Of a stretch of DNA of 64,000 bases, positions 6,201-58,717 are shown piece after piece. The DNA is taken from contig JACPLC010000001.1 in assembly GCA_016186695.1 (NCBI GenBank), positions 174,706-238,705 of the forward strand, read 5' to 3'. Position numbers and translations under genes: made by a program. The notes below the pieces were generated by a model. The model had not been told where the DNA came from, did no database searches, and was given only the letters and a program-made list of their open reading frames with translations. The first letter of the stretch is position 1. Every line of letters begins with the position of its first letter. This DNA is from Candidatus Kaiserbacteria bacterium (lineage in GTDB: Bacteria > Patescibacteriota > Minisyncoccia > Phycocordibacterales > UBA2100).

Positions 6201-9200
6201 ATGGATATTTCACTCGTGCGCCATCAGGCGAAAGTTTTCGCATTTGTATTGTTTACTGCTCTCATCCTGCTCGTCGTACTCTTGACGTCCATTGCGCGCG
6301 GTGCCGTGGGCACGCTCACGACAAGCGATCTCACGAGCACAGGCCAAACCATCAAGGCCTCGTCAGCGGCGACCGCCGTCATCGGCATCAACGTCGTCGT
6401 TTCGGCGAGCGAAACGATGGCCTCGACTTCGCTCATGATCGCAGGCACGGGTGGCTTTGTCGCCGCGGATGATCTCGCAGCGCTCGGCACCGCAACTTCC
6501 TCGGGCATCGCTATCTATCGCGACGACGCGGTCTCAGGAACAAACGGCAGCTTCGATTCCACAGATGACGTCATACCTCTCGCATCCGCACCTACATTTT
6601 CCGGTGCGACGACGACATTGACGTTTGCAGGCGTCGAGGCCTTGCCCGCGAACAACACGGGCGACAACGAGGGAAGCGACTACTTCATCGTCGTCCAAAC
6701 CTCCGCAGCGGCGACAAACGCCCGCTTGTTCACCGTCTCGCTCTACCCCGGCGAGGTCGGCTTCAACGTCGTGCGACAGAGCACACCCACCGCGCTCACA
6801 ACGAAGTCGGTCACGATCGACACCGTCGCACCCACCGTGAACACAAACACGACGGGCCCTGCGAGCGGCTCCACGAACGTGCCCGTTTCGACCTTCATTC
6901 ACATGGGTTTTAGCGAAAATCTTGACCAATCTACGCTGAATTCGAACAACATCATCTTTACCCAAAACGGCTCCGCGGTGGGTGCCGGCATCCGGCCGTT
7001 CCCTGATGGCTTCGACATCGTGGTCTCCAACCCGCCTACCTACACGGCGAGCACGAAGTTTGCGAAAGTGACGACCGTCTCGACGGGCTTCTACAATGTC
7101 TCGGGCACAAATGCCATCACGCCGCAGGGCGCCTACACCGCACCTCTCTACGGTGACATCGTCTATACGCAGTTCGGCACGTTCCCGCCGGAAGTCGGCG
7201 TTATCACCAACAGCGTTCTTACCTCGGGCACCTTCGCCATCAATGGAAACGCCCTGTTTAGCCCATCGCAGGTGACGAAGTTCGCGTCTCCCGCGTTTGC
7301 GACAACGACGGGTACGGGAAGTCCCGTCGGTATCGGGGATCTCGTTGTCACCAATACAAGTGCGAACCCCGCCGACGTCCGCTACGGCTGGCACATTGTC
7401 ACCACGGGAGCAAGCATCAACGGCTCGGGCCTGCGGCTCGATGGCGCGAGCGGTCAGCCCACCTATCCTGCCTCGACGACGCTCTCGAAGATCCTGCCTG
7501 CCGCGACCTCCACCATGGATGCTTCAGGCCGGCTGAACGCGACAACGACCTTTTCTGCCGGTGACCTCGTCTTTGCGAGAGTCGACAGAAACGGTGATCA
7601 CAACGATACGTACTCTTGGCACCTCGTCACGACGGGGGAGACCATTAATGGTCTCTTGGGATCCGGCGCAACACCGGGTACGACCTCGGCACTGCGACTC
7701 GACAGCGGTAACGGCGCGCCGCACTTCGCCCCCTCGTCTGCATTTGCAAAGATCACCACCTCCGCGACCGGTGCTATCGACTCGGGCGCGCAGAATGCGA
7801 CCGTCTTTTCTCTCGGGGACATGCTCTTTGCGAGGACGACCGCCGGCGCCTCGAATCTCGATGCGTACAACTTCCATCTCGTCTCGGGAGGCGCGACCGG
7901 TGCGACCTCGACCGCGCTCCGGCTCGACAACGCCTCCTCGAACCTCGCGACCTCAACGACATACGTCGTGACCGCCAAACCCGGCGTCACGGATAGCGCG
8001 GGGAACGCGCTTGCTGCCTCCTCGACGCTCTCCTTCACGACCGGCGGTACGGGTGGAACCAACATCTCGCCGCCCTATGTGCAAAGCAGCCAGCCGCAAG
8101 GAGGGAGCCAGAGTCACCCCATCAACGGTCCTATCAAGCTCACGTTCTCCGTAGCCATGAAGAGCGACGGCGGCGCAAACGCCGTCACGAACACCGCGGT
8201 CGTCAAACTCTCGACTGACGTGAATGGCCAGCCCGGCGTGGCGGTCACCTCGACCAACACGTACGATTCCACCACGAACACGGTCACGGTCACGCCGAGC
8301 GCGAACCTCACGGCATCCACCAACTATGTCGTGCTGGTCATGACGACGGCGCAAAGTACCAACAACATCGGCCTGCCGAATGAATACCGACTCTACTTCC
8401 GAACCTCGAGCGGCGCTGATTCTACGGCGCCGACGGTGCTGGGCGTGAATCCGACCAACAATTCGACGAATATCTCGCTCGGTCCGGTATTTACTGCCGG
8501 CTTCTCCGAAGACATGGACCCTTCGACGGTAACGAACTCGACCCTGAAGCTCGCGACACAGATCGGGGGCACTGCCGTTTCCGGCAATGTCACCTACAAC
8601 CAGCAGAGCCGCTCCGCGTCGTTTGCGCCCTCGACCGCACTTTCCGCAAGCACGGGATACAAATTCACGGTCGGCGCAGGCTTGACAGGCCCAGCGGACC
8701 TCTCGGGTAATCGCCTCGCCGCCACTTCGACGACATTCGCAACAACGACCGCGACGGCCGACACATCGGCGCCATCGGTGCAGTTCGCAAGTGCAGACAA
8801 CTTCGGTATCGCTATCACGTTCTCCGAGACAATGAAGACGGGTGGCGGACCGAACGCGGCCGACAACGTCGCCAACTACACACTCGAGAGCCCTCTTGGC
8901 ACCTCGATCGGTTTAGGTGGCAAAACGGTGACATACGACGGCATGACAAAGACCGCCCGCATCTCCGGGCTTTCACTCTCGAACGGCAGCCAGTTCAAGG
9001 CGACGGTTGCTACCCCCGTACAGGACTTGGCAGGGAACGGCATCTCGACATCGGGGACGCCCGCGGGCAACATCGCGGTCGGCACGGTGCAAAATTCTTC
9101 GCAAACAGGCGGCCAGCTCGGCCCCGGCACGGGCACTATCGATCAAAGCGTGCAGGGCATGAATCCGACACAGCTCATGCCGATGGTCCGCATGGCAGGC

Positions 9201-12200
9201 GCCATATCCGACTATCGGGTTAACTTCCTTGCAGGGACTTCTATCCCCTCGGGCGGGCAGATCATTGTCACCTTCCCTTCAGGCTTCGACGTGTCGCGTG
9301 CTTCTACCACACCCGCAGCCTCGTCGCTCTGCAACAACGACATCAATGGCACACAGTTCAGCGGGCCCGCGAGCTTGCCTGTGATCGCATCGGCATCTGC
9401 GAATTCTGATGCCGGCACGGTCACCATCACGACTGCGGGCGACGCGACCGGCGCGAACACATTCATCTGTCTCGAGCTTACCGGTATCATCAACTCGACC
9501 GTGCCCTCGAGCTCCGGCTATACCGGCGACATCAAGACGCGCGACACGGCCGCGAACAATCGCGCTATTCTCGAGACGAAGACCACCTCGCCGTTCTTCC
9601 TCGGAGCGGCGGGCACTCGCACGCTCACGGTCAACGTCTTCAATGATGGAAATGCGAACAGCACCAACAACGCAAACGAAGGCATCGCCGCAGTGAAAGT
9701 CTTCCTCTTCTCGCCCGCGACTGGTGGCAACTCAACGACCACCAACGCCTCCGGTGTCGCCTCCTTCACCTCCCTTGCCGACGGTGACTACATGGTCGGT
9801 ATCGATCCGGGCACGCTTGCCTCGGCGTCTTCGACGGTTGTATACAACTCGTCTCCCCAGCCCATAACCATCTCTGCGACGAACCTCACGAAGAACATCA
9901 TCGTCTCCGGAGGGGGCAGTACCATCGCGCTTTCGGGTACAGTGACCGGCCCTAACGGCACCGATGTCGACATATTCGCTTCTTCGGGGCAGGGCTTCAC
10001 GAAGGTCGTGAAAACGATGACAGGAAGCGCCGTTTCCTACTCGCTCCGCATCTCGCCGAGCACGATATATAGCGTCGGCGTCGGCCCGGGGATGCCCGAT
10101 TCATTCTTCATTCCGGGAGGTCCACCGCCAAAGCCCCCGACCTTCACCTTCATGCCGCCGCCGAACGTGACGGTCATCGCAACGACGACGAACGTCACCG
10201 GAGTGAACTTCACGCTCTCCTCCGCGGATAAAACCATCACGGGCACCGTCGTCGATTCTGCAGGTAGCGCGGTATCGAATGCGGGAGTCTTCGCACGGCC
10301 AATCTCCAACACCACGTCTGGGGGTGGTCCCACCTCCGATCTCGGCTTCGGAAGCGGCGGCCAGACAGACACCTCTGGCGCCTTCTCCATCAATGTGGTC
10401 GCGGGCACGTACCTCGTCGGCGTCTTCAAGCCAGGCATGCCGAGCGTTCCCGACCAGCAGATAACCGTCCCCTCGAGCGGCGCGAACACGCCGAGCTCGC
10501 TTGCGTTCAAACTTGGCACCGCCTCGACGCTCACCATTTCCGGTACCGTGAAGGACGATAACGGCAACGCGATTCCGTACGCCGGCGTCGGCGGACGCAA
10601 GGTCGTCTCTACTGCCGACACGACGCCGATAGGCGGCGGTCAGGGTAACTTCGTGGGCGGCCCGACGGACGCCAACGGCGCATACACGCTCTATGTCACC
10701 AACGGCGTATGGCAGATCGAGGCGTACGCTCCCGGCTTCGGCAAGCTCGGCTCAAAAACGGTCACCGTCTCCGGTTCCTCCCTATCAGGGCAGGACTTCT
10801 CCGCGCAGACACTCTCCCTCGGCACTGTTACGGGAACGACGACCAAGGCGGCAGTCGCAGTGCAGGGCGTCATGGTACATGCCGAAGGAGCAAACGGCCG
10901 CAACTTTGGTGTTTCTGATGCAGACGGCGTGTACTCACTGAAGCTGCCTGCCGGAAGTTACACGCTCACCTGCTTCTTCCCGGGGATCGGCGATTCAACA
11001 CCGATCGACGTCACTTCTACCGCAGATACGACGAGCTACAGCAACAACTGCGCACTCGCTGCGCCGATCACCGTGACCGTCAACCTCACCGACGGCACGA
11101 ATCCGATCACGAACGCATACGTTGACGCGCGTACCTCTACGGGGCGCGGCAACGGCACGAGCGAGAGCACGAGTTCGGGTGCGAACGCCACCTACACCCT
11201 CACGCTCTCGCCCGGCACTTACACCGTTCGCGCGGGACACCCGGCCTTCGGCCCCATCGGTTCGACGGGAAGCGTTTCCTCCACACAGACCATTACCTAC
11301 ACCGCGCCCACGCTCTACAGCGTGACCGGCACGGTGAACTCCTCGGGCGTCGGCACGAACAATGCGTTTGTCTCTCTTACCGGAAGACCCACTGGGCAGA
11401 CGAACACCATCATGGTCGGCGCACAGACAAATGACAGTGGCGCCTACACGATTAGCGCGCCAAAAGGCTCGTACCAGCTCCGCGCCGATAAACCGGGCTA
11501 CATCCTTTCCGAGCCGGTCTCCGTCACTGTCGCGGGCAACACGACGGCTACGGAAGTCTCGCTCCGCGCGGCTTCGCGCACGATTTCCGGCACCGTCTCT
11601 CTCTCAAGCTCCGGCGTCTCGGGCGCGTTCGTGGATGCGACCGACGGCTCGGGAGGATTCGCAGTTGCACAAACCGACTCCGCCGGCGCCTACTCCTTGA
11701 GCGTGACACCCGCAAGCTGGGTCGTGACGGCGCGCTCTATCGGCTACCATGCCTCGACGACCGTTGATGTGACGAGTGCCTCCGCAAGCGGCCAGAACAT
11801 TACGCTCGCGGCGATCTCCGGATTCACACTTACTGCCGAGCGGCAGGAGACCATAACGCCGACGGCCGGCGGATTCGTCACCAACTCCGACATCGGTTCA
11901 AACTTCAAACTGACGATTCCTGCAAACGCGCTTGGCACCGGTTCGAATGCCGGTACCGTGAAGACGCAGGCGAACACCGCAGTGCCGGGTATCGCGAACG
12001 GCACCGTACTCTCGAAGAATGCGGTAACGATCTCAGCGGTTGACTCCTCGGGGCAGCCCGTCAAGAGCCTCAATGACGCGGTGACGGTCGTCGTGCCGTA
12101 TACCGAGGCAAGCGTTCCAAGCGGAACATCGGAGGCCGATCTGCAGCTCGGTGTATGGAACGACGCGACGCAGGCCTACGACATGCTCCCCACAACAGTC

Positions 12201-13262
12201 GACGTGACGAACAATACGCTCACGGCGAACGTGTCGCACTTCTCGGACTTTGCGCCGATTTCACCCGCGCAATCCTCTGGCTCTGCGGCGAGCACCGGAA
12301 GTACCGGGAGCTCCGGAAGCAGTGGAGGAGGCGGTGGCGGTGGAGGAGGGAGTGGCGGCAGCATCGTGAATCCTCCTGCAAAGACGATAGCGAAGGCCCA
12401 GATCATCTATCCCGACGGCACCGTGACGTACGTCGACCAAAACCTCGGTGTTGCGACGGGGGCGGCAGCTGCAGGAGCGGCACGAGGGAGTGCAGCGGGT
12501 GGAGCACGCTTCAGTGTCCTTCTCCGACAAGGCTCCAAGCATGCTGATGTGGCGCGACTCCAGAAAGCGCTCGGCGTTGATCCAACAGGGTACTTCGGGC
12601 CACTCACGCGTGCTGCAGTGGAGGCGTTCCAAGTAAAGCATGTAATAGCGAAGCGGGGCGACCCCGGATTCGGAACCCTTGGTCCGAAGACGCGTGCGAA
12701 GTTGAACGAACTCTTCGGCGAAGGTACTGGTGTTGCCGCGCCACAAGCCTCTGCGCAAGGTCAGGCACAAAGCGGACAGGCTGCAGTGACTTCTGGAACA
12801 CTCACGCGTGCCGTCAAGGTCGGCTCGTCTGGAGACGACGTGAAGCTTCTCCAGGTCGTACTCAACACGGACGCCGATACACGCATTGCCCTCTCCGGTG
12901 CTGGTTCTCCCGGAAACGAAACGACGCTCTTCGGGCGTCTCACTCTTGTCGCGATTCAGCGCTTCCAAGTGAAGCATGGCATCGTAAAGCCCGGCGGGGA
13001 GGGCTATGGAAACGTCGGTCCAAAGACGCGCGCGAAGCTAAACGAGATTCTCGCGGCGTGGCTTGCAGCAACTACCCCCGCGCCGGCTCCTACACCAGAA
13101 CCAACTCCGGCGCCGACACCCTCACCTGTCGCGACCTCAACGGATGCGACTGCAACGACGACCGCGAGTGTTTCTGCCGATGCAACGGCGACAACTACCT
13201 CGTCGACAACCAGCACAACAACGGTGACTGTAAGTGTTAGCGCGACTACCACTTCTTACTAA
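6201..13262 (+). CDS. Giant (2353 aa) cell-surface protein: N-terminal signal anchor, many Ig-like/ beta-sandwich (Big / carboxypeptidase-regulatory-like) repeats, Gly/Ser linker, three PG-binding modules, Thr/Pro-rich C-terminal tail
   Basis: Single uninterrupted 7 kb ORF. N-terminal TM is FAFVLFTALILLVVLLTSIA. The sequence is dominated by T/S/G/V/A-rich beta-strand repeats with recurring VTxxxVAPTV, TYTxTxSxxGY and GxYxVxxxxPGF segments of the kind seen in bacterial Ig-like and CarboxypepD_reg domains. A poly-Gly/Ser linker lies at about 12280..12360. There are three copies of the [10 protein letters not shown](L/I) PG-binding module, and the tail reads TPAPAPTPEPTPAPTPSP. Confidence 0.8.
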   Translation: MDISLVRHQAKVFAFVLFTALILLVVLLTSIARGAVGTLTTSDLTSTGQTIKASSAATAVIGINVVVSASETMASTSLMIAGTGGFVAADDLAALGTATSSGIAIYRDDAVSGTNGSFDSTDDVIPLASAPTFSGATTTLTFAGVEALPANNTGDNEGSDYFIVVQTSAAATNARLFTVSLYPGEVGFNVVRQSTPTALTTKSVTIDTVAPTVNTNTTGPASGSTNVPVSTFIHMGFSENLDQSTLNSNNIIFTQNGSAVGAGIRPFPDGFDIVVSNPPTYTASTKFAKVTTVSTGFYNVSGTNAITPQGAYTAPLYGDIVYTQFGTFPPEVGVITNSVLTSGTFAINGNALFSPSQVTKFASPAFATTTGTGSPVGIGDLVVTNTSANPADVRYGWHIVTTGASINGSGLRLDGASGQPTYPASTTLSKILPAATSTMDASGRLNATTTFSAGDLVFARVDRNGDHNDTYSWHLVTTGETINGLLGSGATPGTTSALRLDSGNGAPHFAPSSAFAKITTSATGAIDSGAQNATVFSLGDMLFARTTAGASNLDAYNFHLVSGGATGATSTALRLDNASSNLATSTTYVVTAKPGVTDSAGNALAASSTLSFTTGGTGGTNISPPYVQSSQPQGGSQSHPINGPIKLTFSVAMKSDGGANAVTNTAVVKLSTDVNGQPGVAVTSTNTYDSTTNTVTVTPSANLTASTNYVVLVMTTAQSTNNIGLPNEYRLYFRTSSGADSTAPTVLGVNPTNNSTNISLGPVFTAGFSEDMDPSTVTNSTLKLATQIGGTAVSGNVTYNQQSRSASFAPSTALSASTGYKFTVGAGLTGPADLSGNRLAATSTTFATTTATADTSAPSVQFASADNFGIAITFSETMKTGGGPNAADNVANYTLESPLGTSIGLGGKTVTYDGMTKTARISGLSLSNGSQFKATVATPVQDLAGNGISTSGTPAGNIAVGTVQNSSQTGGQLGPGTGTIDQSVQGMNPTQLMPMVRMAGAISDYRVNFLAGTSIPSGGQIIVTFPSGFDVSRASTTPAASSLCNNDINGTQFSGPASLPVIASASANSDAGTVTITTAGDATGANTFICLELTGIINSTVPSSSGYTGDIKTRDTAANNRAILETKTTSPFFLGAAGTRTLTVNVFNDGNANSTNNANEGIAAVKVFLFSPATGGNSTTTNASGVASFTSLADGDYMVGIDPGTLASASSTVVYNSSPQPITISATNLTKNIIVSGGGSTIALSGTVTGPNGTDVDIFASSGQGFTKVVKTMTGSAVSYSLRISPSTIYSVGVGPGMPDSFFIPGGPPPKPPTFTFMPPPNVTVIATTTNVTGVNFTLSSADKTITGTVVDSAGSAVSNAGVFARPISNTTSGGGPTSDLGFGSGGQTDTSGAFSINVVAGTYLVGVFKPGMPSVPDQQITVPSSGANTPSSLAFKLGTASTLTISGTVKDDNGNAIPYAGVGGRKVVSTADTTPIGGGQGNFVGGPTDANGAYTLYVTNGVWQIEAYAPGFGKLGSKTVTVSGSSLSGQDFSAQTLSLGTVTGTTTKAAVAVQGVMVHAEGANGRNFGVSDADGVYSLKLPAGSYTLTCFFPGIGDSTPIDVTSTADTTSYSNNCALAAPITVTVNLTDGTNPITNAYVDARTSTGRGNGTSESTSSGANATYTLTLSPGTYTVRAGHPAFGPIGSTGSVSSTQTITYTAPTLYSVTGTVNSSGVGTNNAFVSLTGRPTGQTNTIMVGAQTNDSGAYTISAPKGSYQLRADKPGYILSEPVSVTVAGNTTATEVSLRAASRTISGTVSLSSSGVSGAFVDATDGSGGFAVAQTDSAGAYSLSVTPASWVVTARSIGYHASTTVDVTSASASGQNITLAAISGFTLTAERQETITPTAGGFVTNSDIGSNFKLTIPANALGTGSNAGTVKTQANTAVPGIANGTVLSKNAVTISAVDSSGQPVKSLNDAVTVVVPYTEASVPSGTSEADLQLGVWNDATQAYDMLPTTVDVTNNTLTANVSHFSDFAPISPAQSSGSAASTGSTGSSGSSGGGGGGGGGSGGSIVNPPAKTIAKAQIIYPDGTVTYVDQNLGVATGAAAAGAARGSAAGGARFSVLLRQGSKHADVARLQKALGVDPTGYFGPLTRAAVEAFQVKHVIAKRGDPGFGTLGPKTRAKLNELFGEGTGVAAPQASAQGQAQSGQAAVTSGTLTRAVKVGSSGDDVKLLQVVLNTDADTRIALSGAGSPGNETTLFGRLTLVAIQRFQVKHGIVKPGGEGYGNVGPKTRAKLNEILAAWLAATTPAPAPTPEPTPAPTPSPVATSTDATATTTASVSADATATTTSSTTSTTTVTVSVSATTTSY

Positions 13263-13860: not shown

Positions 13861-14046
13861 ATGGCCAGATACGGTACATATGCAGGGCAAAAGGTTCGTC
13901 GCGCGATGCGCGAGATGAAGCAGGGCAAGCTCCGCTCCGGCAGGAGCGGGAAGCGCGTGACCTCGCGCAAACAGGCGATCGCAATCGGGCTTTCGGAAGC
14001 GCGACGCGCAGGTGGCAAGGTGCCGCGTGCTCCGCGAAGCCGCTAG
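13861..14046 (+). CDS. Small basic conserved protein (resembles the about 60-aa DUF6496-type proteins)
   Basis: 61 aa, MARYGTYAGQKVRRAMREMKQGKLRSGRSGKRVTSRKQAIAIGLSEARRAGGKVP. The KxGxLxSG..G.KVTSRKQAIAIGLSEAR pattern matches a widespread small-protein family that I recall as DUF6496. This identification is from memory only. Confidence 0.45.
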   Translation: MARYGTYAGQKVRRAMREMKQGKLRSGRSGKRVTSRKQAIAIGLSEARRAGGKVPRAPRSR

Positions 14047-15968
14047 AACTGAAAGAATCCCGCGAGTAGATAGAAGACAGATGCGACGAACCGTGCGGCG
14101 GCACTTGCGTGCGGCGCATCACTCGGTGGCGGTGGAGGCGGTTGTTGGGATGTCCCTCCATCAGGCGGAGGTTGCATCATCCCTCCATCGGGTGGTGGCA
14201 TCATGCCGCCACCGTCAGGGGGTGGAACAAAGCCTCCACCTTCGGGCGGATGATATTCTCCGGGCGGGAGCATGCCGCCTTCAGGCGGCCGAAATTCTCC
14301 GGGCGGAGGCATAAATTGCTGTGACTGCTGTTGATACTGTTGTTCGTACTGTCGCTGGTACTCCTGTTTGTACTGCTCTTGATATTGCTGCTGATACTGT
14401 TGTTGAAATTCTGCGGGCTGCCCTTCGGGTGAATGGCGGAAGCTTTCGGGCGGCATCATTCCTTCGGGCTGGTATTGTTTCCCTTCGCCCGGCGGAGGTC
14501 CCCTGAAGTCCATCGGTTGCCGATTTTCCTGCATGAATTTCTGTCGCTCCTCCTCGCTCATGTTCTTAATCTTTTCCGCATCCGGTCCTCCCATGCCAGG
14601 CTCTCCACGAAATCCGTGCTGCTGAAATTTTTCGCGGCACGCTTCCGGGTTTTGCTTGCACTCTTCCATGAGTCCGGGCGGGATCTGAAAACCGCGCTGT
14701 TCCATCGCACGCTCCTGGCCCGTCGCGTGATCCGGCCCCTGGCCTTCCGGACCTCCACCAAATCCGCGCTCTTTCGCGAATGCCTGGCACTCCTCTCGGT
14801 GCGCAGGGTCATCGCAAAACGTGCGGCACTCTTCTCCCTTGCATCCGCCCGGGCCCGTCATGTTTCCCATTTCTTTCATCCGCGATGCATCTTCCTCGCT
14901 CATGAGACCGTTTTCGATTGCGAATTGCATGCAGGCTTCCTGATGCGCCTGATCGTCGCAGTAGCGGCGACACGCTTCTCCGCGGCATCCTCCCGGACCC
15001 GGCTTGTTGCCGATTTTTCGCGCCTGCGCTGCCTCCTCTTTCGACATCATCCCGTTTTCTTCCGCAAACGCGATGCACGCGTCCATGTGCTCCGGATCTT
15101 CGCAGTAGGTCTCACACGCTCTTCCGATGCACCCTCCGGGCCCCGCCTTTCCTGCAAATTTCTTCGCCCGTTCCAATTCTTCGGGCGACATGAGGCCGTT
15201 CTCTTCCGCAAACTGCAGACATTCGTTCATGTGCGCAGGATCGTCGCAATACGTCTTGCATGCCTCGCGCCGACATCCGCCCGGTCCCGGCTTGTCGCCC
15301 ATTTTCTTTGCCATCGTCGCCTCCTCCGCGCTCATGAATCCGTTCTCTACCGCGAAGTTCACGCATTCATCCATGTGCGCAGGATCGTCGCAATACGTCT
15401 TGCATGCCTCGCGCCGACATCCGCCCGGTCCCGGCTTGTCGCCCATTTTCTTTGCCATCTCCAGCTCTTCTTTCGGTATCAAATTGTGCTTTTCGGCAAA
15501 CGCGATGCACTCCTCGAAGTGCCCGTCGGCGTCGCAATAGGCGCGGCACTCCTTCTCGCTCTTGCAGCCGCCGGGACCGCCCTTCGTGCGAACTTCTTTG
15601 GCGATCGCCACCTCCTCGGGAGGAATGAGCCCGTTTTTCTCGGCGAAGGCCAGACATTCGTCAATATGTGCATCGTCATCGCAATACGCTTTGCACTGCA
15701 GCCCCACGCAGCCGCCGGGCCCTTTCGCGCTCCCGATCTTACGGGCGATTGCCGTCTCTTCCTCGCTCATCAAGCCGTTTTCTTCGGCAAAATCAATGCA
15801 TTGTTCGTGGTTTGCAGGATCTTCGCAGTACGTGTGACATGCCTCTTTCGATTCACATCCGCCCAATTCCGGGATAGGGAACGTAATGGTATCTTCTTGC
15901 GCAAATGCAACACCGGCTGCAAACAATATTCCCGCTGCAGCCGTTGCTATCAGTGTTTTTGTATTCAT
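14043..15968 (-). CDS. Secreted tandem-repeat protein: eight about 48-aa four-cysteine repeats (GPGGC-x4-C-x3-CDDxAHxxEC-x-FAxENGLMSxEE), then a Gln/Tyr-rich and Pro-rich tail ending in a C-terminal hydrophobic segment
   Basis: The ORF track gives 14043..15989 with a GTG start. Internal ATG at 15968 chosen because it gives a clean signal peptide MNTKTLIATAAAGILFAAGVAFA|QED. The repeats are very regular. Repeats 3 and 4 are identical over 33 aa, which corresponds to an exact about 140-bp DNA duplication (15241..15318 equals 15381..15458 on the + strand). The tail carries QQQYQQQYQEQYKQEYQRQYEQQYQQQ, then MPPPGEF/PPEGG repeats, then FVASVFYLLAGFFQF. No known family recognised. Confidence 0.8.
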   Translation of the reverse strand: MNTKTLIATAAAGILFAAGVAFAQEDTITFPIPELGGCESKEACHTYCEDPANHEQCIDFAEENGLMSEEETAIARKIGSAKGPGGCVGLQCKAYCDDDAHIDECLAFAEKNGLIPPEEVAIAKEVRTKGGPGGCKSEKECRAYCDADGHFEECIAFAEKHNLIPKEELEMAKKMGDKPGPGGCRREACKTYCDDPAHMDECVNFAVENGFMSAEEATMAKKMGDKPGPGGCRREACKTYCDDPAHMNECLQFAEENGLMSPEELERAKKFAGKAGPGGCIGRACETYCEDPEHMDACIAFAEENGMMSKEEAAQARKIGNKPGPGGCRGEACRRYCDDQAHQEACMQFAIENGLMSEEDASRMKEMGNMTGPGGCKGEECRTFCDDPAHREECQAFAKERGFGGGPEGQGPDHATGQERAMEQRGFQIPPGLMEECKQNPEACREKFQQHGFRGEPGMGGPDAEKIKNMSEEERQKFMQENRQPMDFRGPPPGEGKQYQPEGMMPPESFRHSPEGQPAEFQQQYQQQYQEQYKQEYQRQYEQQYQQQSQQFMPPPGEFRPPEGGMLPPGEYHPPEGGGFVPPPDGGGMMPPPDGGMMQPPPDGGTSQQPPPPPPSDAPHASAAARFVASVFYLLAGFFQF

Positions 15969-16009
15969 GTATTTGTATGTACTACGCACTACTCACTACT
16001 AACTACATA

Positions 16010-16237
16010 CTACTCAAACGGATTCGTCTTCACGCCTCCGTACGGATTCGTCTTCACGTCTTCGAGCGGATTCGTCGTCATGTCCTCGAAGGGGTTCACG
16101 GCCTGCTCCTCGGAGGCTTGTTGCGCCGTGAGCGCAGCGGCCGATTTCTCCCAGCCAATGTCGTAGCCGAAGTAAAAGCCTGCGGCGGCTCCGAGGGCAA
16201 GTCCAGCGACGATCCCGATAATGAGCTGTTGGTTCAT
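16010..16237 (-). CDS. Small single-TM protein with C-terminal NPxE/TNP(F/L/Y) mini-repeats, immediately upstream of and co-oriented with the Cys-repeat protein
   Basis: The ORF track gives 16010..16288. Start moved to Met18 (MNQQLIIGIVAGLALGAAAGFYFGY), giving a 75-aa protein of one TM helix plus NPFEDMTTNPLEDVKTNPYGGVKTNPFE. There is a 40-bp gap to the downstream gene on the same strand, which suggests a two-gene operon. Confidence 0.5.
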   Translation of the reverse strand: MNQQLIIGIVAGLALGAAAGFYFGYDIGWEKSAAALTAQQASEEQAVNPFEDMTTNPLEDVKTNPYGGVKTNPFE

Positions 16238-16407: not shown

Positions 16408-16500
16408 CGGTGTGGCGATCTCACGATTGCCACACCTTTCTCTCTGCGGGGAGGCCGCACTCGAAGTGGCTGATACGCAGAGGCCCCAGCGGGGTTTTGG
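16408..16500 (+). ncRNA. Candidate small RNA or leader, about 90 nt (two hairpins plus a GC-stem/T-run terminator)
   Basis: Downstream of the promoter is a hairpin GGTGTGGC-gatctcacgatt-GCCACACC. A second stem CTCTGCG...CGCAGAG follows, then GGCCCCAGCGGGGTTTT. No ORF with plausible composition covers it. Family unknown. Confidence 0.3.
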
Positions 16501-18881: not shown

Positions 18882-18993
18882 TGTGATGTTCAAACATTTT
18901 GCAAAATGTTGAAATGAAAGATGGGGTGCAGGTGGGGTGCATGGTGGAGGCGCGGGCGTGGGGCGGGGAGGGGTGAGTGGGGATAGCAAGAGC

Positions 18994-19019
18994 CCGATTC
19001 CCCAAACCCAAGATTTGTG
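18994..19019. repeat. Direct repeat copy 2 (ccgattccccaaacccaagatttgtg)
   Basis: Identical to 18432..18457. It lies just upstream of the probable real start (19048) of the methyltransferase gene, at the left edge of the low-GC RM island. Confidence 0.85.
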
Positions 19020-19047
19020 GGATTGGGCATATGATAAAATCGAGTTA

Positions 19048-19887
19048 ATGCCGATACTCACCCAACCACAGAAAGGCAACAAGATCCTCTCGTCTGTTCC
19101 AATAAAGCCATATTTCAAACAAGATAACTTTGTGCTTTATCACGGCGATTCAATTTCGTTGCTCAGTTCGTTGCCGGAAAACTCAATTGACATGATTTTT
19201 GCAGATCCCCCATACAATCTTTCCAACGGAGGGTTCAGTGTTCACGCGGGGCGACGTGTCAGCGTGAATAAAGGAAACTGGGACAAAAGCAATGGATTTA
19301 AAGACGATTACGAGTTTCATTATCGTTGGTTAGAAGCGTGCAGACGCATACTAAAACCACACGGAACCCTCTGGGTGAGCGGCACATATCATTCCATCTA
19401 TCAGTGTGGACACGCCTTGCAGTCACTCGGCTATCACATCCTCAATGACATTTCGTGGTTTAAGCCAAACGCTTCTCCAAATCTCAGCTGCAGATTTTTT
19501 ACTGCAAGCCACGAGACGCTCATTTGGGCCCGAAAAGAAAAGAAAGCAAAACACCATTTTGATTACGATTTAATGAAAGAGGGAGATTGGAGGAGAGATT
19601 TTCTAAAGAAGCCGGGATTACAGATGCGTTCGGTATGGTCAATCGGCACACCTAGACCGGAAGAAAAGAAATACGGGAAACATCCGACTCAAAAACCGCT
19701 GGAGTTATTAAGACGAATTGTACTTGCAAGCACAAAGGTGGACGATATAGTCTTGGATCCATTCACGGGTAGCTCTACAACAGGATTGGCAGCTTCAATG
19801 AATAAGCGAAAATTCATAGGAGTTGATCTTGAAAAAAGCTATCTGGAACTTTCTGTAAAAAGATTTAATGACACGAACAAAACCTGA
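19048..19887 (+). CDS. Type II DNA methyltransferase, beta-class N6-adenine/N4-cytosine (DPPY) methylase
   Basis: Motif IV DMIFADPPYNL precedes motif I VLDPFTGSSTTGLAA (FxGxG), which is the beta-class order. HPTQKPLELLRRIV is typical of N-4/N-6 MTases. The ORF track starts at 18937; internal Met 19048 preferred because upstream is Gly/Arg-rich and overlaps the repeat. The gene is about 42% GC against about 60% for the flanks. Confidence 0.8.
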   Translation: MPILTQPQKGNKILSSVPIKPYFKQDNFVLYHGDSISLLSSLPENSIDMIFADPPYNLSNGGFSVHAGRRVSVNKGNWDKSNGFKDDYEFHYRWLEACRRILKPHGTLWVSGTYHSIYQCGHALQSLGYHILNDISWFKPNASPNLSCRFFTASHETLIWARKEKKAKHHFDYDLMKEGDWRRDFLKKPGLQMRSVWSIGTPRPEEKKYGKHPTQKPLELLRRIVLASTKVDDIVLDPFTGSSTTGLAASMNKRKFIGVDLEKSYLELSVKRFNDTNKT

Positions 19888-19899
19888 CATTCTTTTCGC

Positions 19900-20544
19900 A
19901 TGCAAATAATTACGCGCCCGGTGGCTGTTGAAAATTTGCGCAAGTATATCGGCCAAAATCTGAGAACTTTAGCTGCGGGATTCGGTATCACGACCTACGA
20001 AACTGGCAAACAAAATAAAGGCTGGAAAGGGTTGGTTCTCGAGCGATTAGCGGGGTTGAGCACAAACGTTACCAAAGCTCCGAATGGTCTGACTTTCGAA
20101 CTTAAGTCGGTGGCTTTTCGATTTGTTGGGAAAGATCTTGTTCCTAAGGAGACGATGGCAATAACGATGATTAATCCGGAGGAATTGAAAGCCCACTCAT
20201 TCTTTGAAAGCCATGTTTGGGCAAAACTCAAAGTGGTTGTATTTTGCGCTGTTGAGTGGAGTGGACAAAATGCTCAAAGTGCCAAACTTTTACATGTCGC
20301 TAGTTTAGATTTTGCGGAGGACGACGCACTTATACAGGAAATAAAGGCTGACTACGACCTCATTCGAAATAAGCTCATCAAGCAAGGGTTCAAGGCATTG
20401 ACTGGTAGAGATGGGAAGTGGATTCAGGCACGAACGAAAGGAGTCGGGGGAATAAATCCTCGAACTGGCGCTCGTCGACCGATTACCCGCGCATTTTATG
20501 CTCGAACAAGTTTAGTAAAGAAGATTTTTGAGATAGCGAGTTAG
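19900..20544 (+). CDS. Restriction endonuclease of the MutH/Sau3AI family (GATC-type specificity likely)
   Basis: A MutH-like pattern runs along the length. NKGWKGLVLERLAGL aligns with MutH DKGWIGVLLEIWLG. TFELKS aligns with ELKT. GKWIQARTKGVGG aligns with GEYLQIRPKAANA. RAFYARTSLVKKIF aligns with RGFYLKKNFTSALL. It lies 12 bp downstream of the MTase and has the same low GC. Confidence 0.7.
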   Translation: MQIITRPVAVENLRKYIGQNLRTLAAGFGITTYETGKQNKGWKGLVLERLAGLSTNVTKAPNGLTFELKSVAFRFVGKDLVPKETMAITMINPEELKAHSFFESHVWAKLKVVVFCAVEWSGQNAQSAKLLHVASLDFAEDDALIQEIKADYDLIRNKLIKQGFKALTGRDGKWIQARTKGVGGINPRTGARRPITRAFYARTSLVKKIFEIAS

Positions 20545-24548: not shown

Positions 24549-24611
24549 CGCACCTAAGCGGCGTTTTGCCCGCACTTGCTCTGTGCCGGAGTTTGGCATA
24601 GAAAGTATGGG

Positions 24612-25214
24612 ATGAAAGGGTACAGCCTCACGTTTTTTGTCGCGATCGGCATGGTTCTCGGGATCGTTGTGTTCGTTTCGACGATGACGGGCGCGCTCTG
24701 GTATACGCCGGATTCTGAGGTTCCCGCGCCTGCTCTCGAAGGACTCGCGGAGCAGACTGCCTCTGCTGAAGACTATCCTGTCCGTCTCAAGATACCGGCG
24801 ATCGCGGTCGACGCGACAGTTCAGTATGTGGGAGTGAATGCGAAGGGCAACATGGCAGCACCCTCAAACTTTACCGACGTGGGATGGTACAAGTACGGCA
24901 CCGTGCCCGGTTTTGTGGGGAGCGCCGTGGTGACAGGGCACGTCGACAACGCACTCGCCCTGCCGGGAGTTTTTAAAAATCTCCACGCCTTGAAGGTCGG
25001 CGACGAGATTTATATGGAGAGTAAAGACGGCAGTGAGCTGCGTTTCAGGGTTGCTGAAATTCAAACATATCCCTACACACACGTTCCGCTGAAAACTCTT
25101 TTCTCGCGGCGTGATCTCCCGCGCCTCAACCTCATTACCTGCAAAGGCGCGTGGCTTCAAAGCGAGCGGAGCTACGACGAGCGCCTCGTCGTCTACGCGG
25201 AGCTTGTTTCGTAG
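24612..25214 (+). CDS. Sortase-family transpeptidase
   Basis: N-terminal TM MKGYSLTFFVAIGMVLGIVVFV. Active-site motifs: VVTGHVD (His) and LNLITCKG (TLxTC Cys). The ORF track starts at 24576; Met 24612 is a plausible start. Confidence 0.7.
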   Translation: MKGYSLTFFVAIGMVLGIVVFVSTMTGALWYTPDSEVPAPALEGLAEQTASAEDYPVRLKIPAIAVDATVQYVGVNAKGNMAAPSNFTDVGWYKYGTVPGFVGSAVVTGHVDNALALPGVFKNLHALKVGDEIYMESKDGSELRFRVAEIQTYPYTHVPLKTLFSRRDLPRLNLITCKGAWLQSERSYDERLVVYAELVS

Positions 25215-25245
25215 TAGTCGCGCTATACTTTCGAGGACTCTCGAT

Positions 25246-26274
25246 ATGAGTTTCTACCGAGCGTTTGTTCGTCCGACAATAGATCTGTTTTCAGGTTTCG
25301 ATCGGGAACGCGCGCACTACATTGCGCTGTATGCGCTTCGCTCGTACGGCACTCTTTTTCGATTTGGCGGTGTTCGCAACGAGGTGAGAGCGTTTGGCGT
25401 TACGTTCCCGAATCCGGTCGGTGTTGCCGCCGGCTTTGATAAGCACGCGATCGCACTTGCCGGCTTGGAGGCGCTCGGGTTTGGCTTTGTCGAAGTGGGC
25501 ACGGTCGTACCGCTGCCGCAGGAGGGGAATCCGCGCCCGCGTCTTTTCCGACTTACCGAGGATCGGGCAATCATCAATCGCATGGGATTCAACAGCGAAG
25601 GAGCAGCGGCGCTCGCGAAGCGTCTTTCTGCCCATCGGGTACATCGTATCCCGATCGGCGTGAACATCGGGAAAAACAAGGACACGCCACTCGCGCAGGC
25701 AGCCGATGATTACGAGAAATGTATTGAGAGACTCTACCCACACGCCGATTATTTCACCGTCAACGTGAGCTCGCCGAATACGAAAGACCTTAGACAGCTT
25801 CAGGAGAAACAACAACTCGAAACACTACTTGCGCGCGTCCAAAGGAAAATACATGAATGTGCGCAAGGCGCAAAAATAAAGCCGATGCTCCTCAAGATCG
25901 CGCCGGATCTCTCGCAGAGCGAACAGGACGACATCCTCTCGGTCGCGGCATCCCGCGTGCAGGGACTCGTGATCTGCAATACGACGGTTGCGCGGCCGCC
26001 ATCTCTCCGCTCTCGGCATCGGGCGGAAACCGGAGGCTTGAGCGGGAAGCCTCTGCAAGCGCGCGCTCTTGAGCTCGTGCGGTACGTGCACACGCGGTTG
26101 CCCACCATGCCCATCATCGGAGTCGGAGGCATTCTTTCGCCTGACGATGCGCTGCGCATGTTCGATGCCGGCGCGTCGCTCGTTCAGCTCTACACCGGTC
26201 TTATTTTTGAGGGTCCGTTCCTTCCGTATCGCATCAATCGCGCACTCGCGGCGCGCGCGAGCCGCTCGAATTGA
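25246..26274 (+). CDS. pyrD: Dihydroorotate dehydrogenase (quinone), class 2
   Basis: FPNPVGVAAGFDKHA, GFGFVEVGTVVP, GVNIGKNK and the class 2 catalytic-Ser motif VNVSSPNT. The ORF track starts at 25111, overlapping the sortase; internal Met 25246 (MSFYRAF...) gives a canonical length. Confidence 0.8.
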   Translation: MSFYRAFVRPTIDLFSGFDRERAHYIALYALRSYGTLFRFGGVRNEVRAFGVTFPNPVGVAAGFDKHAIALAGLEALGFGFVEVGTVVPLPQEGNPRPRLFRLTEDRAIINRMGFNSEGAAALAKRLSAHRVHRIPIGVNIGKNKDTPLAQAADDYEKCIERLYPHADYFTVNVSSPNTKDLRQLQEKQQLETLLARVQRKIHECAQGAKIKPMLLKIAPDLSQSEQDDILSVAASRVQGLVICNTTVARPPSLRSRHRAETGGLSGKPLQARALELVRYVHTRLPTMPIIGVGGILSPDDALRMFDAGASLVQLYTGLIFEGPFLPYRINRALAARASRSN

Positions 26275-26286
26275 TATACTGCCGGA

Positions 26287-27357
26287 ATGCTCCATGCGCC
26301 GTTCTACGATCCAAGCAAAACGTACTACGAGAATTGGGAAGAGGGGCCGTTCGGTGATTTTCGAGACGGCGTGAAGGTGCCTCAAAGTGCGCCGCGGTTT
26401 GATTTCCTCGGTCAAAAGATTTCGTATCCGATCGGAATTCCGGCGGGACCGCTTTTGAACAGCCGATTCGTCAAGGCGGCCTTCGACAAAGGTTTCGATG
26501 TCGTCGTTTACAAAACGGTGCGGACGCGTGAATATCGCGCGCATCCGTGGCCAAATATCTTGGGCGTACAGCTCGAAGGAGATCTCACGATCGAGCGCGC
26601 GAAAGAGCCCGTCGTCGTAAAGAACGAATATAAAGAGCCGCTTTCCATCACGAATTCGTTCGGTGTGCCATCGTATCCGCCCGAGGTGTGGAAGGACGAT
26701 CTTACAGAAGCGATCAGCTATGCAAAAGACGGGCAGCTCGTCATCGGAAGCTTCGAAGGGACATCGTGGGAGGGCACATCTGCAGACGGGTACATCGACG
26801 ATTGGGCAGAGGTTGCAGAGATGGTCGTTGCCCGCGGCGCGAAGGTCATTGAGGGAGATTTTTCTTGTCCAAATGAGGGCGGCGCAGGATTGCTTTGCTT
26901 CGACGTGCCGAAAATGAAATTGATAGCTGCGCGCATCAGAGAGCGGATCGGTAGCGTGCCGCTCCTCGCGAAGCTTGCATACTTCGAAGATTCCGCGCTT
27001 CGCGAGCTCGTACAGGAATTGGGCGATCTTGTCGACGGCTACTGTGCGATAAACACTATCTCCGCAGTTGTTGTGAATCCGGATGGAACACAGGCATTGC
27101 CGGGGCAAATGCGAAAGAGGAGCGGCATCTGCGGAACGGCGATCAAGTGGGGCGGCCTCGACATGGTTCGAAGGCTACGCTCGCTCCGCGAGGAGCTTGG
27201 TATGAACTATGCAATCGTAGGCGTCGGCGGTGTCATGGCCCCGAAGGATTTCAAAGAATACCGCGATTCTGGCGCCGATGTCGTTATGAGCGCGACCGGC
27301 GCAATGTGGAACCCCTACCTCGCAAAGGAGATCAAGGAAGCGTATCCAGACGCATAG
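26287..27357 (+). CDS. Class-1-type dihydroorotate/ dihydropyrimidine dehydrogenase-family TIM-barrel flavoenzyme (paralog of pyrD)
   Basis: IGIPAGPLLNS, GFDVVVYKTVRT and the catalytic-Cys motif GDFSCPNEGG (class 1 N-x-SCPN). 356 aa, 12 bp downstream of pyrD. Confidence 0.6.
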   Translation: MLHAPFYDPSKTYYENWEEGPFGDFRDGVKVPQSAPRFDFLGQKISYPIGIPAGPLLNSRFVKAAFDKGFDVVVYKTVRTREYRAHPWPNILGVQLEGDLTIERAKEPVVVKNEYKEPLSITNSFGVPSYPPEVWKDDLTEAISYAKDGQLVIGSFEGTSWEGTSADGYIDDWAEVAEMVVARGAKVIEGDFSCPNEGGAGLLCFDVPKMKLIAARIRERIGSVPLLAKLAYFEDSALRELVQELGDLVDGYCAINTISAVVVNPDGTQALPGQMRKRSGICGTAIKWGGLDMVRRLRSLREELGMNYAIVGVGGVMAPKDFKEYRDSGADVVMSATGAMWNPYLAKEIKEAYPDA

Positions 27358-50317: not shown

Positions 50318-50335
50318 GCTATCTCATGGGTTATA
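50318..50335. repeat. Direct repeat copy B (gctatctcatgggttata)
   Basis: See 45331..45348. It lies 11 bp upstream of the lemA start codon. Confidence 0.8.
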
Positions 50336-50345
50336 CTGGCTGTCT

Positions 50346-54461: not shown

Positions 54462-54540
54462 GCATAAATTATAGCAGAGAGAAATTTGCATGTGCACAAG
54501 GCCCGCTGGACGGGTCTAATCACTCAGATACCATGTATAC

Positions 54541-54945: not shown

Positions 54946-54957
54946 TTTAATAGCGGG

Positions 54958-58692: not shown

Positions 58693-58716
58693 ATCCCCCG
58701 CAAGGGGGATTTTGTA
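58691..58716 (+). terminator. Rho-independent terminator after rnpB
   Basis: AAAATCCCCCGCAAGGGGGATTTTG: a CCCCC-gcaa-GGGGG stem with a T-run. Confidence 0.7.
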
Positions 58717-58717
58717 T

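What the first reader, a model, noticed from the sequence alone, without database searches (positions are those of the whole stretch)
14043..16237. Secreted protein of eight near-identical 48-aa four-cysteine repeats with a Q/Y- and P-rich tail, paired with a tiny membrane protein
The minus-strand gene 14043..15968 encodes a signal peptide followed by eight tandem 48-aa modules of the form GPGGC-x4-C-x3-C(D/E)DxxHxxEC-xx-FAxENGLMSxEE-x4-KKMGxKP. Each module has four Cys plus conserved His/Asp, so it could bind metal or form two disulfides. Repeats 3 and 4 share an exact about 140-bp DNA duplication (15241..15318 equals 15381..15458), which points to recent expansion or contraction by recombination. 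The tail has (QQ[QE]Y)n and MPPP(D/E)GG repeats and ends in a hydrophobic C-terminal anchor. A 75-aa single-TM protein with NPxE mini-repeats lies 40 bp upstream on the same strand. I recognise no described family for either protein, which makes this the most candidate-novel module in the window. It could be an extracellular adhesin or scaffold, a metal-sequestration protein, or a cell-surface repeat protein.
Basis: seen in the sequence. Interest (0 to 1): 0.75.

Follow-up and report, generated by a model that had tools for sequence, protein, structure and literature searches.

The report
Conserved cysteine-repeat rod and NPF-tail partner
This is a real gene pair of unknown function, found only in the tiny Parcubacteria: a secreted rod of eight cysteine-containing helical repeats, always next to a small membrane protein whose tail carries four 'NPF' motifs; neither protein matches any known family or solved structure, so the pair is a good candidate for unknown cell-surface biology.

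Summary
Gene 14043..15968(-) encodes a signal peptide, eight 48-aa four-Cys modules, a Q/Y- and P-rich tail, and a short hydrophobic C-terminal peptide. The 75-aa membrane protein lies 41 bp upstream.

The true repeat is an 88-bp exact run at offset 144 (15228-15315 = 15372-15459). It is a gene-conversion tract between module junctions, not a copy-number change: the closest orthologs also have eight modules, matched one to one.

The family has about 1,700 cluster representatives. Every lineage-named relative belongs to the Parcubacteria group. The repeat region is under strong purifying selection (dN/dS about 0.05).

In 78 of 78 evaluable genomes the NP[F/L/Y]-repeat membrane protein sits directly upstream. 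It usually has four motifs at 8-aa spacing, and no third gene is conserved. Some relatives add Kazal or lectin domains.

Best reading: a disulfide-stapled surface scaffold tethered by, or bound to, its partner's motif array. The binding step is inferred. Metal binding and a cytoplasmic tail are not excluded.

The parts
16010..16237 (-). Small partner gene (75 aa): short N-terminus, one Gly-rich TM helix, linker, four NPx motifs, stop
   Evidence: ORF. Orthologous small ORFs with 2-4 NP[FLY] motifs lie directly upstream of the big gene in 78/80 loci; the other 2 are cut by contig ends.
16169..16225 (-). TM helix LIIGIVAGLALGAAAGFYF of the small protein
   Evidence: Hydropathy scan (mean KD 2.15) and translation.
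16013..16096 (-). NPx motif array NPFEDMTTNPLEDVKTNPYGGVKTNPFE (four motifs, 8-aa period, ends one residue before the C-terminus)
   Evidence: (24-nt tandem period). Family statistics: spacing is 8 aa in 190/216 cases, the last motif is always NPF, and motif identity is position-specific (NPF/NPL/NPY/NPF).
15969..16009 (-). 41-bp intergenic spacer between the two genes (same strand)
   Evidence: In other genomes the stop-to-start distance is mostly -26 to +50 nt and often 1-4 nt.
14043..15968 (-). Large gene (641 aa + stop): secreted Cys-repeat protein
   Evidence: homologs; dN/dS 0.04-0.06.
15900..15968 (-). Sec-type signal peptide MNTKTLIATAAAGILFAAGVAFA (AFA|QE cleavage site; no twin-Arg)
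   Evidence: Sequence. The N-terminus is conserved in orthologs L006-L008.
14766..15869 (-). Array of eight four-Cys modules (C-x4/5-C-x3-C-x8-C; three helices each). The conserved lead-in FPIPELGGC sits at the 5' end of the array, its first five codons (FPIPE-) falling just outside the array coordinates
   Evidence: AlphaFold models have pLDDT 86.9 and 90.5. The Cys are invariant in about 1,040 modules.
15372..15459 (.). Donor copy of the 88-bp exact repeat (junction of modules 3/4)
15228..15315 (.). Acceptor copy of the 88-bp exact repeat (junction of modules 4/5): a gene-conversion tract
   Evidence: The second half of module 5 stays orthologous to module 5 of L006 (0.79 against 0.61).
14619..14672 (-). 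Conserved two-Cys motif LMEECKQNPEACREKFQQ after the array
   Evidence: It is conserved in P0001 and similar motifs occur in other relatives.
14322..14411 (-). (QQxY)n tract, 12-nt period
14103..14321 (-). Pro-rich low-complexity tether (PPPDGG / PPEGG repeats)
   Evidence: The family-wide tail has a median length of 189 aa.
14046..14102 (-). C-terminal hydrophobic/amphipathic peptide AAARFVASVFYLLAGFFQF
   Evidence: A similar terminal peptide occurs in many relatives, often ending in R/K.

Best explanation
This is a two-gene cell-envelope module specific to the Parcubacteria group.

The large protein is exported by Sec. Outside the cell, each 48-aa module folds into a three-helix unit, probably stapled by two disulfides, and the eight units form an elongated all-helical rod. 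A roughly 200-aa Pro/Gln/Tyr-rich flexible tether and a short C-terminal amphipathic or hydrophobic peptide hold the rod at the membrane.

The co-encoded small protein spans the membrane once. It carries four NP[F/L/Y] motifs, each with a position-specific identity, at 8-residue spacing at the very end of an acidic tail.

The most likely mechanism is that this motif array is the cognate ligand or tether of the repeat rod, docking one motif per repeat surface. Together the two proteins would form a membrane-attached surface scaffold, to which some lineages add Kazal or lectin domains.

Shown: export signal, repeat anatomy, helical fold, lack of known relatives, lineage restriction, purifying selection, and strict gene pairing.

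Inferred: disulfides, the outside location of the NPx tail, physical binding between the two proteins, and the scaffold role.
For: Pairing:
- 78/80 species-level loci have the NPx-repeat small ORF directly upstream on the same strand. The 2 exceptions are truncated by contig ends.
- Divergent loci L001, L004 and L005 show the same arrangement.
- ORF clustering over 83 loci finds no third conserved neighbour.
- The stop-to-start distance is often 1-4 nt, which suggests coupled expression.

Motif array:
- 4 motifs in 66/78 proteins, 8-aa spacing in 190/216 cases, and the last motif is always NPF, 1-2 residues from the C-terminus.
- Motif identity is conserved by position, so the motifs are not interchangeable.

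Rod:
- AlphaFold pLDDT 86.9 / pTM 0.65 for aa 24-470 and 90.5 / 0.67 for four modules, with three helices per module.

Extracellular and disulfide:
- A Sec signal peptide is present.
- The four Cys are invariant in about 1,040 modules, while the His is replaceable by Asn.
- True Kazal domains (P0067, E 9e-26) and a ConA-like lectin domain (P0204, E 9.5e-25) are fused after the repeats in relatives.
- CPR bacteria are enriched in MdbA-like oxidoreductase and VKOR (PMC6744442).

Core function:
- dN/dS is 0.04-0.06.
- Module number is stable at 8-9 in most relatives and one to one with close orthologs.

Topology:
- The net charge-difference rule favours N-in / tail-out in 52/70 small proteins.
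Against: - No direct test of binding was possible.
- Both the rod (about -3 per module) and the NPx tail (median -3) are acidic, so simple electrostatic docking is unlikely.
- A plain K/R count favours the opposite topology (tail inside) in 46/76 small proteins.
- Motif number does not scale with module number: 4 motifs occur with 4 to 10 modules.
- The rod shows no structural similarity to known peptide-binding solenoids.
- The disulfide state was not observable, because no model coordinates are returned.
Confidence: 0.4

Rival explanations
1. Metal-binding array. Each module uses its four Cys (with or without His/Asp) to hold a metal ion such as Zn, Fe or Cu. The protein would then be an extracellular metal store, buffer or redox scaffold in anoxic groundwater.
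For: - There are four invariant Cys per module, plus frequent His and acidic residues next to them.
- The rod is very acidic.
- These organisms come mostly from anoxic groundwater, according to the record titles.
- One relative has a weak MopE-type Cu-binding motif outside the modules (P0031, 25.9 bits, below the 27-bit cut-off).
Against: - The His position is Asn in 22% of modules.
- There are no CxxC knuckles, and the signal is Sec rather than Tat.
- Disulfide-dependent Kazal domains are fused in the same polypeptides.
- CPR bacteria have extracytoplasmic disulfide machinery.
- No metal-binding family matches by sequence or fold.
Confidence: 0.17
2. Trans-membrane linker. The NPx tail of the small protein is cytoplasmic. 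The two proteins meet inside the membrane, with the C-terminal hydrophobic peptide of the rod protein packing against the Gly-rich TM helix. The NPx motifs recruit an unknown cytoplasmic partner, linking the outside rod to the cell interior.
For: - The K/R count is higher on the C-terminal side of the TM helix in 46/76 small proteins.
- The N-terminal flank is very short and often uncharged.
- The TM helix is GxxxG-rich, and the rod protein ends in a conserved short hydrophobic helix.
- Both soluble parts are acidic.
Against: - The net charge-difference rule favours tail-out in 52/70.
- Members with the clearest signal (MEKKK-TM-acidic tail, e.g. L038, L080) are N-in / tail-out.
- No conserved cytoplasmic partner gene lies nearby.
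Confidence: 0.15
3. Multi-headed inhibitor or defensive decoy. The small disulfide-rich modules themselves inhibit or sequester host or competitor enzymes, as tandem Kazal proteins do. The small protein would be only an accessory factor.
For: - Kazal domains recur in the family, flagged in about a fifth of the top 120 hits.
- The architecture is tandem small Cys-rich secreted modules.
Against: - The modules are all-helical and have no exposed reactive-site loop.
- No inhibitor family matches.
- The window protein has no Kazal domain.
- This reading does not explain the obligatory NPx partner.
Confidence: 0.07
4. Variable adhesin or contingency locus, or an assembly artefact. On this view the repeat number changes rapidly by recombination, or the duplicated block is mis-assembled.
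For: The 88-bp exact repeat inside a 144-nt period could confuse short-read assemblers and could support recombination.
Against: - Module number and order are one to one with three related genomes.
- The sequence on both sides of each repeat copy is distinct, and the reading frame is intact.
- dN/dS is about 0.05.
- The family mode is a stable 8-9 modules.
Confidence: 0.04

Closest known systems
ARM/HEAT/TPR alpha-solenoid repeat proteins (e.g. importin-alpha binding extended NLS peptides)
   Same: Tandem 40-50-aa all-helical repeats, three helices per repeat as in ARM, predicted to form one continuous rod. Such proteins typically bind extended peptide motifs, which fits a partner that carries a periodic linear-motif array.
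EH domain - NPF motif recognition (eukaryotic endocytic machinery)
   Same: Several NPF motifs in a flexible acidic tail would serve as multivalent ligands for a small helical domain.
   Different: There is no EH/EF-hand domain in the rod. The weak Pfam 'NPF' hit of the small protein (E 0.079) is only motif composition. The setting here is bacterial and probably extracellular. Binding was not tested.
Disulfide-stapled helical mini-domains (twin-Cx3C small Tims, CHCH twin-Cx9C, CS-alpha/alpha toxins, Euplotes pheromones)
   Same: Short helices carry a Cx3C pair and are probably cross-linked by two disulfides. Weak, non-significant hits to the Euplotes pheromone family occur in 2/41 modules.
   Different: Each module has only one Cx3C and a different Cys spacing (C-x4/5-C-x3-C-x8-C). 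It has three helices, is repeated eight times in one secreted bacterial protein, and shows no significant sequence or fold match.
Scaffoldin-type surface assemblies (cellulosomal cohesin-dockerin; WxL/Csc surface clusters of Firmicutes)
   Same: A repeat scaffold is encoded next to a small anchoring partner. A periodic short motif would dock on repeated modules, and accessory binding domains are added in some members.
   Different: There are no cohesin, dockerin, WxL or SLH domains, and the fold is helical rather than beta. There are no enzymes in the locus.
Tandem Kazal-type inhibitors (ovomucoid, LEKTI)
   Same: These are secreted arrays of small Cys-rich modules, and true Kazal domains are fused to this family in some lineages.
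   Different: The repeat module is not Kazal: it has a different Cys pattern and is all-helical. The window protein has no Kazal domain.

Membership tests
Any curated protein family (Pfam-A, NCBIfam) | Score at or above the family's curated cut-off | tested here: not met
   For the whole protein, a single module, 41 modules and the small protein, the best hits are all far below cut-off (e.g. YrzK 16.3 against 27.8 bits; NPF 13.9 against 27.6).
ARM-repeat superfamily | Three-helix repeats superposable on ARM repeats, plus a match to ARM profile HMMs | tested here: not met
Kazal-type inhibitor domain | Match to PF00050/PF07648 with the six-Cys pattern | tested here: not met
   It is absent from the window protein. 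It is present only as an added domain in relatives such as P0037, P0067 and P0153.
Sortase (LPXTG) substrates | LPXTG-like motif followed by a hydrophobic segment and a basic tail | tested here: not met
   The 641-aa protein has no LP.TG. The C-terminus is a hydrophobic peptide with no preceding motif. A sortase gene does exist elsewhere in the window, at 24576-25214.
Tat-exported cofactor proteins | Twin-arginine motif in the signal peptide | tested here: not met
   There is no RR in the first 25 residues. The n-region is MNTK.
Twin-Cx3C / CHCH disulfide-hairpin families | Two Cx3C or two Cx9C motifs on antiparallel helices | tested here: not met
   The module pattern is C-x4/5-C-x3-C-x8-C in 988 of 990 modules (the other two have x9), with only one Cx3C each.
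Structural Zn(Cys)4 or Fe-S modules | Four Cys arranged around one metal ion (geometry), with metal present in the protein | not testable with these tools
   No model coordinates are returned and there is no experiment. Indirect evidence is that the four Cys are invariant while His is replaceable by Asn.
Two disulfides per module | Cys S-S distances of about 2 A in pairs; mass shift on reduction | not testable with these tools
   This is inferred from Sec export, the Kazal fusions and the CPR MdbA/VKOR machinery (PMC6744442).
EH-domain / NPF system | An EH (EF-hand pair) domain that binds NPF peptides | tested here: not met
   There is no EH or EF-hand hit in the rod protein. Motif binding itself was not testable.

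The most novel reading that the evidence does not exclude
The pair is a previously unrecognised bacterial repeat-receptor / linear-motif system. It would consist of a new, disulfide-stapled extracellular alpha-helical repeat fold whose modules each read one NP[F/L/Y] motif of a membrane-anchored partner. The resulting surface fibre would be lineage-wide in the Parcubacteria and would underlie envelope organisation or host attachment in these episymbiotic ultrasmall bacteria.
Probability: 0.25. Interest if true: 0.8.

Novelty: new variant of a known kind. Interest (0 to 1): 0.62.

Why it matters
Parcubacteria are among the most abundant and least understood bacteria. None of this group's conserved, lineage-specific envelope proteins has a known role. 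How these cells organise their surface and attach to hosts is an open question.

This pair has the features of a core envelope component. Its relatives come from many candidate phyla of the group, it is under strong purifying selection, it is strictly co-encoded, and it is predicted with high confidence to adopt a repeat architecture with no solved counterpart. It is small, soluble and modular, so the hypotheses can be tested directly with recombinant protein and peptides: disulfide or metal, NPx binding or not.

If the motif-repeat docking is real, it would add a new extracellular helical repeat and linear-motif recognition system to bacterial cell biology. It would also give a handle, such as antibodies or tags, for imaging these uncultured cells.

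Tried and rejected
1. Pfam, NCBIfam and PDB sequence searches with the whole protein, one module, 41 modules and a module profile gave only sub-threshold noise: YrzK, HepT-like, TFIIA, PAF-AH and the Euplotes pheromone family.

3. I tested for pairwise loss of Cys, which would indicate disulfide partners. The test was uninformative because Cys are essentially never lost in about 1,040 modules.

4. I built a same-genome paired, fused alignment (rod + linker + NPx tail, A3) to test docking by AlphaFold. No natural fusions exist among the 120 homologs.

6. A proportionality between module number and motif number was not found.

7. Electrostatic complementarity between rod and tail was not found; both are acidic.

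8. The topology of the small protein gave conflicting answers from the K/R count and from the net charge difference.

9. Literature searches for the GPGGC motif, CPR with Kazal, and Patescibacteria surface or Cys-rich proteins found no description of this family.

10. A whole-module duplication was rejected in favour of gene conversion.

11. Simple promoter and terminator scans around the pair found nothing useful.

12. An exact look-up of the window protein in public assemblies found no record.
Full report
**What is there.**

The minus-strand ORF 14043..15968 encodes 641 aa from its ATG. It reads as follows:
- A Sec-type signal peptide, MNTKTLIATAAAGILFAAGVAFA|QE, with no twin-arginine.
- A conserved lead-in, TITFPIPELGGC.
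- Eight modules with the Cys pattern C-x4/5-C-x3-C-x8-C at a 48-aa (144-nt) period. They start at aa 34, 83, 131, 180, 228, 276, 324 and 372. The eighth lacks its third helix.
- A linker, then a two-Cys motif, LMEECKQNPEACREKFQQ.
- A (QQxY)n tract and a Pro-rich PPPDGG/PPEGG tract.
- A terminal hydrophobic peptide, AAARFVASVFYLLAGFFQF.

Tandem Repeats Finder and the repeat finder recover the 144-nt period and the smaller 12-nt and 24-nt periods.

Forty-one bases upstream on the same strand lies a 75-aa ORF (16010..16237). It has one Gly-rich TM helix and a C-terminal NPFEDMTTNPLEDVKTNPYGGVKTNPFE.

The coordinates given are not identical to each other. The true repeat is an 88-bp exact run at offset 144 (15228-15315 = 15372-15459).

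**The exact repeat is gene conversion, not expansion.**

The window's modules match the modules of the closest orthologs (loci L006, L007, L008) one to one. Each ortholog shows the same run of module starts; L006 carries one further GPGGC-initiated unit after them.

Modules 4 and 5 of the window are 94% identical over their first 72 nt but only 61% identical over their last 72 nt. The second half of module 5 remains closest to module 5 of L006 (0.79 against 0.61).

The identical tract encodes …MAKKMGDKPGPGGCRREACKTYCDDPAHM. That is the junction of modules 3/4 copied onto the junction of modules 4/5. The module count did not change.

An assembly error cannot be excluded without reads. It is unlikely, because each copy has distinct flanks, the frame is intact and the modules remain orthologous.

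**It is a real, constrained gene family.**

A search of 5.8 billion proteins gave more than 2,000 hits. All names that sources gave were 'hypothetical' or similar; the only others were one automatic 'Kazal-type serine protease inhibitor' and one 'proline-rich domain-containing protein'. All hits that carry a lineage name come from Patescibacteria: Kaiser-, Azam-, Sung-, Wildermuth- and Kuenenbacteria. The best hits are Kaiserbacteria proteins at 65-66% identity.

A single-module profile scored against 1.84 billion cluster representatives found 1,681 proteins at E<=1e-3 and 877 at E<=1e-30. Every one of the 150 best-scoring hits listed has 5-12 modules.

Among the top 120 hits the module number is 5-12, with a mode of 8-9.

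In about 1,040 modules the four Cys are essentially never missing. Positions G-P-G-G before C1, Tyr/Phe before C3 and F-A after C4 are also nearly invariant. The 'conserved His' is His in 72% and Asn in 22% of the canonical modules tabulated.

dN/dS of the repeat region against L006 and L008 is 0.04-0.06.

A scan of one genome per species (GTDB) returned 175 relatives. The 80 loci kept carry Patescibacteria or Parcubacteria-group titles where a lineage is named: Kaiser-, Azam-, Zambryski-, Vogel-, Wildermuth-, Colwell-, Ryan- and Sungbacteria, and Paceibacterota. The generic 'uncultured Saccharibacteria' titles, a few plain 'bacterium' titles and one 'uncultured archaeon' title belong to automated MAG submissions.

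**No known family or fold.**

Pfam, NCBIfam and PDB sequence searches are negative for the whole protein, for a single module, for 41 modules and for a module profile.

AlphaFold2 with 121 homologs gives a confident model of aa 24-470 (pLDDT 86.9, pTM 0.65). Every module is a short helix carrying C2 and C3, a one-residue break, a 13-residue helix carrying His/C4/Phe-Ala, and a third 10-12-residue helix. A four-module model is even more confident (pLDDT 90.5, pTM 0.67).

I had considered the module ARM-like because of its three-helix pattern. That membership test failed.

**The partner is the strongest finding.**

Three divergent loci first showed an 81-98-aa ORF directly upstream, each with a TM helix and NPF repeats ending the protein.

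Across 80 species-level loci, 78 have such an ORF on the same strand, ending mostly within 50 nt of the large gene's start and often within 1-4 nt. The two exceptions are cut by contig ends. All-against-all clustering of neighbouring ORFs over 83 loci shows no third conserved gene.

The partner's tail is highly regular:
- It has four motifs in 66 of 78 proteins.
- The spacing is 8 aa in 190 of 216 intervals.
- The last motif is always NPF and lies 1-2 residues from the C-terminus.
- Motif identity is position-specific: NPF, NPL, NPY/F, NPF. The consensus is AV-NPF-ExVxT-NPL-E[DN]VKT-NPY-ENVKT-NPF-E.

Its homologs are all unnamed, apart from one spurious automatic JGI label.

**Where it acts.**

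Four points argue that the large protein works outside the cell and that its Cys form disulfides:
- It has a Sec signal.
- Genuine Kazal domains are fused after the repeats in some relatives (P0067 has three, E 9e-26; also P0037 and P0153).
- A ConA-like lectin domain is fused after the repeats in another (P0204, E 9.5e-25).
- CPR bacteria are documented to be enriched in MdbA-like thiol-disulfide oxidoreductase and VKOR (PMC6744442).

No model coordinates are returned, so disulfide versus Cys4-metal geometry could not be checked.

The C-terminal peptide is short and often amphipathic, and frequently ends in Arg/Lys. There is no LPXTG. It looks like an in-plane or short membrane anchor rather than a sortase signal.

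The topology of the small protein is unsettled. The net charge-difference rule puts the tail outside in 52 of 70 cases. A plain K/R count points the other way in 46 of 76. The members with the clearest signals (MEKKK-TM-acidic tail) are N-in / tail-out.

**Mechanism.**

I commit to the following reading at about 0.4 confidence. The pair forms a membrane-attached surface scaffold. The disulfide-stapled helical rod is held by its Pro-rich tether and C-terminal peptide, and it binds the periodic NPx array of its partner. Some lineages hang Kazal or lectin domains on it.

Four observations argue for a physical partnership:
- the strict pairing;
- the coupled gene spacing;
- the non-interchangeable motifs;
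- a repeat protein facing a periodic linear-motif array.

Four observations argue against it:
- both parts are acidic;
- motif number does not track module number;
- no similarity to known peptide-binding solenoids was found;

The rivals are metal binding (0.17), a cytoplasmic NPx tail with an intramembrane contact (0.15), an inhibitor array (0.07), and a variable locus or assembly artefact (0.04).

**Novelty and verdict.**

No paper in the searchable library describes the motif or the pair. Méheust et al. mention Parcubacteria-enriched hypothetical membrane families only in general terms.

The kind of thing, a secreted tandem-repeat surface protein with a small partner, is familiar. The domain, its predicted fold and the NPx partner are new, and the pair recurs across many candidate phyla of one lineage. 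I rate it a new variant of a known kind, with an interest score of 0.62. There is about a one-in-four chance that it is a new repeat/linear-motif recognition system of the Parcubacteria cell surface.

Noticed in passing
window 6201-13262 (+): A 2,353-aa predicted surface protein has Big_5 Ig-like domains, five CarboxypepD_reg domains, an SdrD_B-like domain, C-terminal peptidoglycan-binding domains and a Thr/Ser/Ala-rich tail. It lies about 0.8 kb from the 3' end of the Cys-repeat gene, across the msrB gene, and converges on it.
   Followed up: partly
window 33115-35487 (-): A 790-aa ORF has two D-Ala-D-Ala ligase units: both the N- and C-terminal Ddl domains match twice. It appears to be a tandem-fused double Ddl.
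   Followed up: no
window 45550-50268 (+): A 1,572-aa ORF has no Pfam match at all. ORFs 36308-37405, 50331-51008, 53484-54497 and 54897-55424 also have none.
   Followed up: no
window 58354-58694 (+) and ORF 58655-61012: A bacterial RNase P RNA (126 bits) overlaps the mechanically called TTG start of a TPR-repeat ORF. The true start of that ORF must lie further downstream.
   Followed up: no
window 24576-25214 (+): A sortase gene is present in the window, yet the Cys-repeat protein has no LPXTG-type signal. The sortase substrates must be other proteins.
   Followed up: partly
window 18937-20544 (+): An N6/N4 DNA methyltransferase is followed by a MutH-like endonuclease-domain protein. This is probably a small restriction-modification pair.
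   Followed up: no
window 14322-14411 (-): The (QQxY)n tract places Tyr every fourth residue over about 30 aa (EFQQQYQQQYQEQYKQEYQRQYEQQYQQQS). If helical, it would form a Tyr stripe, a possible self-association or cross-linking element. It is conserved in the closest orthologs but not across the whole family.
   Followed up: partly
window 16409-16436 (+): A 12-bp-stem inverted repeat (GGTGTGGCGATC…GATTGCCACACC) followed by a T-rich run lies in the divergent intergenic region upstream of the small gene. Its role is unknown.
   Followed up: no
loci L032, L038, L041, L043, L047, L066, L080 (Zambryskibacteria-type): A sub-group has only four modules, but its small partner still has four NPx motifs. 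A second sub-group (L024, L027, L074, L079, L085) has five modules and only two motifs. The stoichiometry is therefore lineage-specific rather than proportional.
   Followed up: partly
relatives P0005, P0062, P0090 and P0146, P0158 (1,431-1,555 aa): Some family members end in a different Cys-containing C-terminus (…LSACLAVANMRECRQMVKWYLMAKL). Others are twice as long and have no Pfam-recognisable extra domains. The family's accessory regions are themselves unexplored.
   Followed up: no
window 25111-27357 (+): Two adjacent dihydroorotate-dehydrogenase-family genes are present, one matching strongly and one weakly. A VIT1 iron-transporter fragment, an Obg GTPase and CofD lie nearby. This is unusual metabolic content for a reduced CPR genome.
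   Followed up: no
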